Shown: one piece after another, positions 3,001-4,544 of the stretch
Layout: every line of letters starts with the position of its first letter
Position numbering within the stretch: the first letter of the stretch is position 1
Origin: a virus
Taxonomy: Duplodnaviria; Heunggongvirae; Uroviricota; Caudoviricetes
Reading direction: 5' to 3' (one strand)
DNA: 4,544 nt
Virus record (IMG/VR): IMGVR_UViG_2534681979_000017
Coordinates: 1 to 4,544 of that record
Made by a program: the position numbers

Positions 3001-4544
3001 TAAACGAATTAATGCAGGCGATCGCAGGGGAGCGTGTGAAGCGATTCGCTGGTGGATTAAGGACGGTGGCAGAGACTGCCGTATCCGCTCAAATAACTGT
3101 TATGGTCAGGTATCCCGTCGTGACCAGGAGAGCGCGCTGGCGTGCTGGGGAATCGACAGATAAGCAGAATATTTTGCTGAAAAATAAGGTATGGCCACGC
3201 GGGCGGATAACACGAAATCCTGCGAACTGGCGAAACGTAAGTGAATAAAAGTAAAAACCCCGTTTGTTGGCAGCAAGCGGGGTTTTGTTTTTATGGCAGT
3301 AAGCTATGGGAGGCTGCCTTGATTGATTTTAGCAAACTGATTAGGGAGTTGCGACTCATGATTAGTCAATTACCAAACTGGAAATTTTTGCTGGTCTGGA
3401 GCATCCCTTTTTTATGGGTAGTATCCCAGTTAATTGTGGCAATTAAGGGGTAGCTATGTCAGACAAACTCATAACGCCGGCAAAGGTCCTGTGTGTGATT
3501 GTCGGTATTTCATTTTCACTAATGCTGGTTGCTCTTTTTCTGTCCATCGCCTGGGTGATGTTGTCTTCGTCGGGGCTGCTGGGGTGACAGTGACTGATGA
3601 CATCAGCAGAGCGCTGGCTTTTGCTATTAAGTGGGTGGCTGTTGGTATTGCTGTGTCTCCGATGCTGTATGGGCTGGCAAAACTGGTCATTGCGCTGAAA
3701 TCGTGAACTTTAAAAAGATGAGTGCTGAACTTATTCGGGCAATGGCATTTGCCATTCGTATTGTGGCCATTGCTGTTCTGGTCTGGACAATCCGTTGGTG
3801 GTGATATGAACCGTGTTCTGTGTGTGGTGATTATTGTCCTGCTGGTAGCCTGTGGTGTGCTTAGTCTGGGGCTGAATCATTACCGTGATAACGCCATTAC
3901 CTACAAAGCCCAGCGCGACAAAAATGTCAGAGAACTGAAGCTGGCGAACGCGGCAATTACTGACATGCAGATGCGTCAGCGTGATGTTGCTGCGCTCGAT
4001 GCAAAATACACGAAGGAGTTAGCCGATGCGAGAGCTGAAAATGAAACTCTGCGCGCTGATGTTGCCGCTGGTCGTAAGCGCCTGCGGATCAACGCCACCT
4101 GTCCAGGCTCCGTGCGTGAAGCCCCCACCACCTCCGGCGTGGATAATGCAACCGGCCCCCAACTGGCAGACACCGTTACACGGGATTATTTCACCCTCAG
4201 AGAGCGGCTGATGACGATGCACAAGCAACTGGAAGGGGCACAGGACTATATCCGCACTCAGTGCCTGAAATAAGTTTTGTTGATGCGCCGTATCGTCGCT
4301 GTATTCCCTCATTAACAGAGACCGCAGCCCGACAGGGAGACTCCTCTGCGCGAGTGTGCGGGGATAATCAAAAACGATACACACCGGGGTTTACCGCGTT
4401 AACGGAGCGCGGCGTTGTCCCCTCATAGTCGCCTGTCCGGTGCGATGGTGGAAGAAGCCGGATGTTTATCACTATTAATTGATGACACAGAAATGGATTC
4501 ATTGAATTTCAGCACGTTTTTGTATTCGTGTTATTGAACATCTG

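What the first reader, a model, noticed from the sequence alone, without database searches (positions are those of the whole stretch)
3253..3295. Strong bidirectional intrinsic terminator inside the lysis operon, between endolysin and spanin genes
A GC-clamped hairpin of about 13 bp, flanked by an A-run upstream and a T-run downstream, sits 90 bp after the endolysin stop. Unless it is read through by an antiterminated late transcription complex, it would uncouple Rz/Rz1 and the small ORFs from holin and endolysin transcription. This suggests the downstream block may have its own promoter or be regulated differently. It would also stop antisense transcripts entering from downstream.
Basis: seen in the sequence. 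Interest (0 to 1): 0.45.

Follow-up and report, generated by a model that had tools for sequence, protein, structure and literature searches.

The report
Two-way terminator of antisense RNA cassette
The hairpin between the endolysin and spanin genes is real, and it most likely serves as the shared two-way stop signal of a small mobile cassette in which a P22 sar-like antisense RNA guards a 44-residue membrane-protein gene; the cassette is found in thousands of E. coli prophages.

Summary
A 15-pair hairpin at 3254-3286, with an A-run before it and a U-run after it, lies 90 nt after the endolysin stop. It is far more stable than shuffled sequence.

The prophage has a Q antiterminator and at least four other terminator-like hairpins upstream in the same late operon. 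Read-through by Q-modified polymerase is therefore the ordinary expectation. No plus-strand promoter follows the hairpin.

The hairpin is not simply the end of the endolysin unit. It is the 5' part of a cassette of about 220 bp: A-run, hairpin, U-run, a spacer of about 35 nt with a ribosome-binding site, and a small membrane-protein ORF. This cassette recurs behind four unrelated endolysin families and inside baseplate and tail operons across Enterobacteriaceae. The stem covaries.

A minus-strand extended -10 promoter (TGCTAAAAT) lies in codons 3-6 of the ORF, where synonymous variation is suppressed. It predicts an antisense RNA of about 75 nt that covers the ribosome-binding site and ends at the hairpin. 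The geometry matches P22 sar/ant, and one family member scores 38 bits against Rfam sar. The RNA itself is inferred, not shown.

The parts
3254..3286 (.). GC-rich hairpin: AAAACCCCGUUUGUU / GGC loop / AGCAAGCGGGGUUUU. It reads as a terminator stem on both strands.
   Evidence: for the sequence and folding. Covariation.
3283..3293 (+). Plus-strand U-tract (UUUUGUUUUUA) after the stem.
   Evidence: It is conserved as UUUU(G/C)UGUUUCU in homologues.
3240..3257 (-). Minus-strand U-tract (GGGGUUUUUACUUUUAUUCAC), the complement of the A-run. It is also the left edge of the cassette (ATAAAAGYRAAAA).
   Evidence: The A-run is kept in all contexts, and the flanks diverge upstream of it.
3295..3318 (.). 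Spacer with a small hairpin, GGCAG(3295-3299)/CTGCC(3314-3318). Its loop carries the Shine-Dalgarno sequence GGGAGG (3308-3313). On the minus strand the loop carries the anti-SD sequence CCUCCC.
3319..3453 (+). Small membrane-protein ORF with a TTG start, 44 aa: LIDFSKLIRELRLMISQLPNWKFLLVWSIPFLWVVSQLIVAIKG. It matches phrog_6632 (function unknown).
   Evidence: There are 74 homologues, all in Enterobacteriaceae. It always follows the hairpin.
3326..3354 (-). Predicted minus-strand promoter inside codons 3-12 of the ORF: -35 TCGCAA (3354-3349), a 17-nt spacer, and an extended -10 TGCTAAAAT (3334-3326).
   Evidence: TTAGCA is invariant in 21 of 21 sequences. Synonymous variation is suppressed in codons 2-12. 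The position matches P22 Psar.
3243..3319 (-). Predicted cis-antisense RNA of about 75 nt. It has a 5' stem-loop with the anti-SD sequence in the loop, a linker, the terminator hairpin and a U tail.
   Evidence: Fold. The covariance model R1 scores the window at 3237-3318 (minus) with 65 bits. Homologue L342 hits Rfam sar. The RNA itself is inferred.
3164..3243 (+). Separate conserved non-coding block directly after the endolysin stop. Its conserved motifs are AGAATATTTTGCTGAAAAAT and CGGATAACACGAAATC. Function unknown.
2630..3163 (+). Endolysin R (phage lysozyme, P21 type).
3806..4273 (+). Spanin Rz, with Rz1 embedded at 4026-4211.

Best explanation
The hairpin is the two-way terminator of a small mobile cassette built like the sar/ant module of phage P22.

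On the minus strand, a promoter embedded in the first 36 nt of the small ORF (extended -10 TGCTAAAAT, 3334-3326) would start transcription at about 3319, which is the ORF's start codon. The transcript would run through the complement of the ribosome-binding site and stop at the hairpin and its U tail (3286 to about 3243). The result is an antisense RNA of about 75 nt. It can pair with the ribosome-binding site of the small membrane-protein ORF and block its translation.

On the plus strand, the same hairpin with its U-run stops ordinary transcription coming out of the endolysin gene. In a lysogen the small ORF and Rz/Rz1 are thereby kept silent. During lytic growth, Q-modified RNA polymerase reads through this hairpin as it does the other terminators of the late operon.

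What is shown: the structure, its conservation and covariation, the cassette boundaries, the promoter-like motif, and the nucleotide-level constraint over it.

What is inferred: the existence of the RNA, termination in either direction, repression of the ORF, and Q read-through.
For: 1. Cassette. The hairpin, U-run, spacer of about 35 nt with a Shine-Dalgarno sequence, and small ORF occur together in unrelated settings:
   - after a GH24 lysozyme (window, H-19B)
   - after a GH19 endolysin (L337-339)
   - after an M15 peptidase (L346-349)
   - after a P2-type lysin (L342)
   - inside baseplate operons (Rac-SA53, SEN34, Klebsiella, E. kobei, E. coli)
   - between the lambda-like tail genes I and J (Citrobacter)
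   Sequence similarity begins at the A-run.
2. Stem covariation is described.
3. The A-run, which is the minus-strand U tail, is kept everywhere. In L340 and L342 the minus-strand tail is better than the plus-strand tail.
4. Minus-strand promoter. TGCTAAAAT or TGCTAATAT lies at nt +8..+16 of the ORF in 21 of 21 sequences. The codons AGC (Ser5), AAA (Lys6) and CGA (Arg12) are invariant. The mean minor-codon fraction is 0.086 in codons 2-12 against 0.33 in codons 13-43 (Mann-Whitney p = 4e-4).
5. Other ORF types. Where the same hairpin and spacer precede different small ORFs (MAKYKRIL.. and RKYKRFF..), a minus-strand promoter-like site sits at the same offset: TAGTCA-18-TATACT or TGGACA-18-TATACT. 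Pseudo-starts in the reverse orientation show none.
6. P22 precedent (annotation of NC_002371):
   - sar RNA at 15021-15090, minus strand
   - its terminator directly after arc
   - ant ATG at 15091
   - Psar at nt +7..+35 of ant, with -10 TGCTATACT
   The geometry differs from the window by 1 nt, and the -10 region is similar.
7. Rfam. L342 at 1936-2002 (minus) matches RF00262 sar over the full model 1-68 with 38.1 bits, E = 2e-6. Its stem CCCCGACTGCGGGAACAGTCAGGG is nearly identical to the P22 stem CCCCAACTGCGGTAACAGTCAGGG.
8. Reciprocal test. A model built from the cassette's minus strand finds the sar terminator as its best hit in the whole P22 genome (22.5 bits, E about 0.002).
9. Fold. 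The predicted window RNA has a 5' stem-loop with the anti-SD sequence in the loop plus a terminator, like sar.
10. Q read-through. The Q gene lies upstream, and at least four other plus-strand terminator-like hairpins lie in the same operon.
11. [quoted passage not shown]
Against: - No transcript data were available, so the antisense RNA is a prediction.
- The window copy gives no Rfam sar hit even at E <= 10. Only one distant family member does, and it scores below the gathering threshold (38.1 against 43).
- The reciprocal model matches P22 only over the hairpin, and its next best P22 hit is another terminator, oop.
- In the window's lineage the minus-strand stem carries two C.A mismatches. 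Its core energy is -9.2 against -15.6 kcal/mol for the plus strand. The plus strand is the more stable in 52 of 53 E. coli variants, which points to selection on the plus-strand RNA there.
- The -35 hexamer is poor (3 of 6), so the promoter rests on the extended -10.
- Suppressed synonymous change at the 5' end of an ORF can also come from constraints on translation initiation.
- The Hfq-CRAC sRNA list for O157 Sakai has no entry at the Sp4 copy. That list, however, excluded sites within 100 nt of a coding region.
- In baseplate operons without known antitermination, an efficient plus-strand terminator would be polar on essential genes. Plus-strand termination may therefore be leaky.
Confidence: 0.6

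Rival explanations
1. It is a plain plus-strand intrinsic terminator that closes the endolysin module. In the lysogen it insulates downstream genes from unantiterminated transcription, and Q-modified polymerase reads through it. It also acts as a recombination joint between mosaic modules. No antisense RNA exists, and the A-run is incidental.
For: - The plus-strand hairpin is strong and more stable than the minus strand in 52 of 53 E. coli variants. GC-to-GU and UA-to-UG changes keep only the plus-strand helix.
- BLAST similarity to Stx phages and to many E. coli genomes breaks at window 3292-3295, just after the hairpin.
- The Q gene and several other operon-internal terminators are present.
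Against: - The hairpin travels with the downstream small ORF, not with the endolysin. It is found in baseplate and tail operons with no endolysin nearby.
- The A-run, which is the minus-strand tail, is conserved in all contexts. In some members it is better than the plus-strand tail.
- A conserved minus-strand promoter-like site with suppressed synonymous change lies at the position of P22 Psar.
Confidence: 0.25
2. The hairpin ends a plus-strand small RNA of about 130 nt (3164-3293). This RNA would be made either from its own promoter or by processing of the endolysin 3' UTR, and it would act in trans, possibly through Hfq.
For: - The 90 nt between the endolysin stop and the hairpin are non-coding: indels break every frame.
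- They are nevertheless conserved, including in Salmonella phage SPN3UB behind a different endolysin.
- The whole stretch folds well (z = -4.7).
- An A-R-N-rich run precedes the terminator.
Against: - No plus-strand promoter-like site was found.
- There is no Rfam match.
- The upstream helix proposed by RNAalifold is not kept in SPN3UB.
- The upstream block also occurs without this hairpin in 933W-type phages, where the replacement hairpin is weak (z = +0.67).
- The hairpin also occurs without the block. The two are therefore separable modules.
- There is no entry in the O157 Hfq-CRAC list.
Confidence: 0.1
3. The cassette is a type I toxin-antitoxin pair. The small hydrophobic protein is a membrane toxin and the antisense RNA is its antitoxin, and together they stabilise the prophage. 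Under this reading the hairpin is the antitoxin's terminator. This is a special case of the best explanation.
For: - The ORF encodes 44-45 residues with a hydrophobic C-terminal half.
- The predicted antisense RNA covers the ribosome-binding site.
- The window region gives weak sub-threshold Rfam similarity to antitoxin RNAs: ohsC at 20 bits and rdlD at 13 bits. These scores probably reflect the terminator shape alone.
Against: - No promoter for the toxin mRNA lies inside the cassette.
- The ORF is always fused into a late operon and abuts the next phage gene.
- No match was found in Pfam, NCBIfam or PADLOC.
- Toxicity was not tested.
Confidence: 0.15

Closest known systems
P22 sar antisense RNA with its terminator and the Psar promoter (immI region, arc-sar-ant; Rfam RF00262)
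   Same: - The RNA is on the minus strand and starts at or 1 nt before the start codon of the downstream gene.
- Its promoter lies inside the first 35 nt or so of that gene, with a TGCTA(T/A)A(C/A)T extended -10.
- The RNA covers the ribosome-binding site.
- It folds into two hairpins, with the anti-SD sequence in the 5' loop.
- Its terminator lies directly after the upstream gene.
One cassette member (L342) matches the Rfam model over its full length.
   Different: - The target is a 44-45-residue membrane-protein ORF, not the antirepressor Ant.
- There are no arc or mnt genes and no Pant promoter.
- The location is a lysis cassette or a baseplate/tail operon, not immI.
- The window copy is too diverged to hit RF00262.
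- Most cassette hairpins also carry a plus-strand U-run, which the P22 hairpin lacks (GGCTTCGGTTGTC).
Operon-internal intrinsic terminators of lambdoid late operons, read through by Q-modified RNA polymerase (for example tR')
   Same: It is a GC-rich stem with a U-tract inside a Q-dependent late operon. Several similar hairpins lie in the same operon.
   Different: It carries a conserved A-run and a linked antisense promoter. It moves as a cassette into operons that are not known to be antiterminated.
Morons of temperate phages (Juhala/Hendrix definition; 'ant moron' in PMC2629481)
   Same: It is extra DNA inserted between genes that are adjacent or overlapping in relatives: R and Rz overlap in K-12 Qin and in P22. 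It carries its own transcription signals.
   Different: The terminator is upstream of the ORF, not downstream. The only promoter-like site points backwards. The ORF depends on the host operon for transcription.
Type I toxin-antitoxin loci (hok/Sok, zor/Orz, shoB/OhsC)
   Same: A small hydrophobic ORF whose translation start is covered by a short cis-antisense RNA that ends in an intrinsic terminator.
   Different: No toxin promoter is present, no toxicity has been shown, and there is no sequence-family match.

Membership tests
Intrinsic (Rho-independent) terminator | GC-rich stem of 5-15 pairs with a short loop, immediately followed by a U-rich tract | tested here: met
   On the plus strand there are 15 pairs, a 3-nt loop and the tract UUUUGUUUUU. 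On the minus strand the stem has two C.A mismatches and is followed by UUUUUACUUUUAUU.
Intrinsic (Rho-independent) terminator | Transcripts actually end at the U-tract, in vitro or in vivo | not testable with these tools
   No transcript data were available. This needs Term-seq or in vitro transcription.
Bidirectional terminator | An A-tract upstream and a U-tract downstream, so that both strands read as hairpin plus U-run, conserved across relatives | tested here: met
   Both tracts are present in all 21 family members. In the window's lineage the minus-strand stem is weaker.
sar RNA (Rfam RF00262) | Score at or above the Rfam gathering threshold (43 bits) | tested here: not met
   The window gives no hit at E <= 10. 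The homologous cassette in L342 scores 38.1 bits over the full-length model, with E = 2e-6 locally.
sar RNA (Rfam RF00262) | Antisense to the ribosome-binding site of the downstream gene, with the promoter inside that gene's first 35 nt or so and the terminator after the upstream gene | tested here: met
   The predicted promoter is at 3354-3326, the start is near 3319 and the terminator runs 3286-3254. P22 has Psar at 15125-15097, sar at 15090-15021 and the ant ATG at 15091. The promoter is a motif match, not a mapped start.
sar RNA (Rfam RF00262) | The target gene is the antirepressor ant, in an immI region with arc and mnt | tested here: not met
   The target is a 44-aa membrane-protein ORF between the endolysin and the spanin genes.
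Moron | Present between genes that are contiguous in related phages | tested here: met
   R and Rz overlap in K-12 Qin and in P22. In the window they are 642 nt apart.
Moron | Own sense-strand promoter and a downstream terminator, allowing expression from the repressed prophage | tested here: not met
   There is no plus-strand promoter-like site. The ORF abuts the next gene with no terminator between them.
Type I toxin-antitoxin | The small hydrophobic protein is toxic when expressed, and an antisense RNA neutralises it | not testable with these tools
   Only the hydrophobic ORF and a predicted antisense RNA are seen. There are no family hits.

The most novel reading that the evidence does not exclude
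A widespread family of P22 sar-like antisense RNA genes, apparently not described before, acts as a portable lock. Each lock combines a two-way terminator with an antisense RNA whose promoter is written into the first 12 codons of whatever small membrane-protein ORF it is fused to. These units have been inserted ahead of spanin, baseplate and tail genes in temperate phages of Enterobacteriaceae. Stx1 phage H-19B carries one, and prophages in about a third of complete E. coli genomes match the query spanning the unit. The units would gate a late-expressed, possibly toxic or lysis-modulating, membrane peptide.
Probability: 0.45. Interest if true: 0.65.

Novelty: new variant of a known kind. Interest (0 to 1): 0.5.

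Why it matters
If the antisense RNA exists, the classic P22 sar mechanism is not a peculiarity of the immI region. It would be a reusable module that phages attach to different genes.

It would add an unannotated RNA gene and an unannotated family of small membrane proteins to the lysis region of many pathogenic E. coli prophages, Shiga-toxin phages among them. It would also explain why a strong hairpin sits inside operons that must be transcribed through.

It offers a clean test case for how a promoter can be embedded in coding sequence, seen as suppressed synonymous change over exactly 36 nt.

If instead the hairpin is only a plus-strand terminator, the finding is ordinary. Q-antiterminated late operons are known to contain such signals.

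Tried and rejected
1. Rfam search of the whole window and of 3200-3380 gave no family for the window copy.
2. Known prophage sRNAs were checked:
   - AgvB, AsxR and the EcOnc list (PMC4104026) have no entry at the R-Rz position of Sakai Sp4.
   - The Pas sRNAs (bioRxiv 10.64898/2026.05.13.724894) lie between the esterase and the holin, not between R and Rz.
3. Full-text searches for the hairpin and block sequences found no papers.
4. A plus-strand promoter for an sRNA or for the small ORF was not found. The TTGACA seen at the end of R in some variants has no -10 at a usable distance.
5. An 8-codon mini-ORF (ATG..GGATAA) in the upstream block was considered as a leader peptide or attenuator. 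I rejected it because the window and about a quarter of variants have ATA in place of ATG, the peptide is not conserved, there is no Shine-Dalgarno sequence, and no conserved antiterminator pairing exists.
6. The RNAalifold long-range helix in the upstream block is not kept in SPN3UB.
7. The idea that a terminator is always re-created after R fails. The 933W-type replacement hairpin is no better than shuffled sequence.
9. The search for related loci returned only near-identical copies. Diversity came from the protein search plus look-up of encoding contigs.
10. Schaefer & McClure 1997 (PMC1369469) is not held.
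Full report
**Context**

The window is the late/lysis region of a lambdoid prophage. Positions 3100-3420 are 100% identical to E. coli O111:H21 strain 15A. The genes are as follows:

| Coordinates | Strand | Feature |
|---|---|---|
| 37-1002 | + | C-terminal part of a DUF6645 protein |
| 1152-1367 | + | P21-type holin |
| 1372-2154 | + | DUF1327/YdfR fusion ORF |
| 2187-2501 | - | 104-aa ORF |
| 2630-3163 | + | phage lysozyme R |
| 3319-3804 | + | four small hydrophobic ORFs |
| 3806-4273 | + | Rz |
| 4026-4211 | + | Rz1 |

**The observation**

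Positions 3254-3286 form AAAACCCCGUUUGUU-GGC-AGCAAGCGGGGUUUU. The tail GUUUUUAUGG follows, and one more A (3253) extends the run that begins the stem. It is the top terminator-like site of the window.

The plus-strand fold gives -25.0 kcal/mol (z = -4.97). The minus-strand fold gives -15.3 kcal/mol (z = -3.52). No shuffle of either strand folded as well. The hairpin starts 90 nt after the endolysin stop.

**Is a terminator here a problem for the operon?**

The source prophage has a Q-type antitermination gene about 4 kb upstream of the holin, in the same orientation. Between Q and the endolysin there are at least four other strong plus-strand terminator-like hairpins, at L009 38-55, 1565-1582, 1787-1806 and 3985-4013. 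The last of these is window 1085-1113.

Holin and endolysin are therefore just as dependent on antitermination as Rz. From established lambda biology, Q-modified polymerase ignores intrinsic terminators. By inference, the hairpin does not uncouple Rz from S and R during lytic growth. No plus-strand sigma-70-like promoter lies between the hairpin and the next ORF.

**Distribution**

The query 3100-3420 matches 6275 places in 2036 of 5426 complete E. coli genomes. It also matches many Stx1 and Stx2 phages, H-19B and Salmonella phage SPN3UB. In K-12 Qin and in P22 the R and Rz genes overlap. The 642 nt between R and Rz in the window are therefore inserted DNA.

That DNA falls into separable modules. 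The first is a block of about 90 nt directly after the R stop (3164-3243). It is non-coding, because indels break all frames. It also occurs in 933W/VT2-Sakai-type phages, where it is followed by a different, weak hairpin and then an ant gene. The second module starts at the A-run.

**The hairpin belongs to a cassette**

BLAST with the SPN3UB version found the hairpin plus the following small ORF between baseplate genes of Escherichia phage Rac-SA53 and Salmonella phage SEN34. Neither site has an endolysin or the upstream block.

A profile of the small ORF (A4) found 74 proteins, all in Enterobacteriaceae. Their encoding contigs place the ORF in these settings:
- after a GH19 endolysin (Enterobacter)
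- after an M15 peptidase (E. coli)
- after a P2-type holin/lysin pair (Salmonella)
- after a CHAP protein (Providencia)
- between lambda-like tail genes (Citrobacter)
- in baseplate operons (Klebsiella, E. kobei, Salmonella, E. coli)

In every case the ORF is preceded by the same arrangement: an A-run, a GC hairpin, a U-run and a spacer of about 35 nt with a Shine-Dalgarno sequence. Similarity starts at ATAAAGCRAAA, just before the stem.

The stem sequences differ while the pairing is kept:

| Measure | Observed | Control |
|---|---|---|
| Cells paired | 92.5% | 43-59% (partner columns slid) |
| Pairs with double changes | 6 | not applicable |
| Cells with double changes | 23 | not applicable |
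| Covariation score | 0.252 | 0.118 (shuffles; 0 of 500 reach the observed value) |

Across the wider family the two strands fold about equally well. The plus-strand bias seen in 52 of 53 E. coli lambdoid variants belongs to that lineage.

**A conserved antisense promoter**

On the minus strand, all family members carry TGCTAAAAT or TGCTAATAT. This is the reverse complement of AT(T/A)TTAGCA in codons 3-6 of the ORF. A weak -35 (TCGCAA or TCGAAT) lies 17-18 nt upstream of it. In the window the -10 with its TG extension is at 3334-3326 and the -35 at 3354-3349.

Synonymous variation is almost absent in codons 2-12. AGC, AAA and CGA are invariant in 21 of 21 sequences, and the mean minor-codon fraction is 0.086. 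In codons 13-43 the fraction is 0.33 (Mann-Whitney p = 4e-4).

Where the same hairpin and spacer precede other small ORFs in E. coli copies (MAKYKRILLRL.. and RKYKRFF..), a minus-strand TAGTCA-18-TATACT or TGGACA-18-TATACT sits at the same offset. The reverse orientation of the palindromic hairpin served as a control and gave no promoter-like site.

A start about 7 nt downstream of the -10 falls on the ORF's start codon (3319). The transcript would run through the complement of the Shine-Dalgarno sequence and end at the hairpin and its U tail. It would be about 75 nt long.

**Link to P22 sar**

An Rfam scan of the related loci gave one relevant hit. L342 at 1936-2002 (minus strand) matches RF00262 sar at 38.1 bits over model positions 1-68. 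The E-value is 3e-4 in 44 kb and 2e-6 locally, and the gathering score is 43. The hit starts at the ORF's start codon.

The P22 annotation shows the following:
- arc at 14861-15022
- sar RNA at 15021-15090, minus strand
- the sar terminator at 15021-15058
- ant starting at 15091
- Psar at 15097-15125

In sequence, the Psar -10 is TGCTATACT at nt +7..+15 of ant. The sar stem is nearly identical to the L342 stem.

A covariance model built from the cassette's minus strand (R1) finds the sar terminator as its best hit in the whole P22 genome. That hit covers only the hairpin, at 22.5 bits and E about 0.002, and the next P22 hit is the oop terminator.

The predicted window RNA (3319 to 3243) folds into a 5' stem-loop (GGCAG/CUGCC) with the anti-SD sequence CCUCCC in the loop, followed by the terminator. 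This is the same architecture as sar. Sar is known to block the ant ribosome-binding site (PMC7968456; PMC2629481).

The window copy itself does not hit RF00262. I therefore describe it as sar-like in how it works, and I do not file it as a member of that family.

**Most likely mechanism**

The hairpin is shared by two transcription units that face each other. Leftward, it ends a short antisense RNA that can pair with the translation start of the small membrane-protein ORF. Rightward, it stops ordinary polymerase leaving the endolysin gene, while Q-modified polymerase passes.

Together these would keep the small ORF, and Rz/Rz1 behind it, silent unless the late operon is fully switched on.

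The structure, conservation, cassette boundaries, motif and codon constraint are shown. The RNA, termination, repression and read-through are inferred. My confidence is about 0.6.

**Rivals**

- A plain plus-strand terminator and mosaic joint (0.25). It fits the plus-strand bias and the BLAST breakpoints. It does not explain the linkage to the ORF, the conserved A-run or the antisense promoter.
- A plus-strand small RNA covering 3164-3293 (0.1). It lacks a promoter, a family match and a conserved upstream structure. Its two halves also occur apart.
- A type I toxin-antitoxin reading. This is a special case of the best explanation that adds an untested claim of toxicity.

**What remains unexplained**

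- The function of the small ORF. It has no Pfam, NCBIfam or PADLOC match.
- The role of the conserved block at 3164-3243.
- How phages whose baseplate operons carry this hairpin express the genes downstream of it.

No paper describing a sar-like RNA in lysis cassettes was found.

Noticed in passing
window 3164-3243: A conserved non-coding block lies directly after the endolysin stop. Its motifs are AGAATATTTTGCTGAAAAAT (part of a near-palindrome, AGCAGAATATTTTGCT) and CGGATAACACGAAATC.

It also occurs after a different endolysin plus a small ORF in Salmonella phage SPN3UB, after a lipoprotein gene in phiP27, and ahead of ant in 933W/VT2-Sakai-type phages.

Most variants hold an 8-codon mini-ORF (ATG..GGATAA). 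The window has ATA in place of ATG. Its function is unknown.
   Followed up: partly
window 1085-1113 (+): A second strong terminator-like hairpin (AGAGCCATCAGTACTTAACTGGTGGCTTT followed by TTTATTG; z = -3.5) lies in the 148-nt gap between the DUF6645 gene and the holin. This is the position where the PasA/PasC prophage sRNAs are reported (bioRxiv 10.64898/2026.05.13.724894). There was no Rfam hit, and the sequence could not be compared with the Pas RNAs.
   Followed up: partly
window 3319-3804: Four tandem small hydrophobic ORFs (44, 43, about 40 and 28 aa; phrogs 6632, 4906, 1115, 4493) fill the space before Rz.

The last one ends in ..IRWW*, overlapping the Rz start. This is exactly how the canonical 45-aa cassette ORF ends in H-19B and SPN3UB. 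The first one has the canonical N-terminus but a different C-terminus.

The region looks like an expanded or recombined version of a single ancestral ORF.
   Followed up: partly
window 3433-3462 (-): A second minus-strand promoter-like site (CTGACA-18-CACAAT, with TG before the -10) lies at the junction of the first and second small ORFs. It is not conserved in phages where the cassette ORF abuts Rz.
   Followed up: partly
window 1372-2501: The 260-aa ORF after the holin is a fusion. DUF1327/YdfR occupies its first 100 residues, and phrog_1085 matches residues 132-260. PGAP calls the YdfR part a truncated pseudogene. A minus-strand 104-aa ORF (phrog_1853) sits between it and the endolysin, so the lysis cassette is interrupted twice.
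   Followed up: no
L255 (Escherichia phage Rac-SA53) 3133-3216 (-): There is a full-length Rfam hit to sRNA-Xcc1 (RF02221) at 78 bits, above the gathering score. It lies next to an antirepressor gene, about 1 kb from the cassette copy.
   Followed up: no
L146, L153, L178, L208 (IMG/VR E. coli prophage contigs), just after the hairpin: In some copies a 24-nt stretch encoding a 8-codon ORF (MGREVLSL*) is inserted between the spacer and the RKYKRFF.. ORF. This would lengthen the predicted antisense RNA by about 25 nt. The minus-strand promoter there is the best of the family (TGGACA-18-TATACT).
   Followed up: partly
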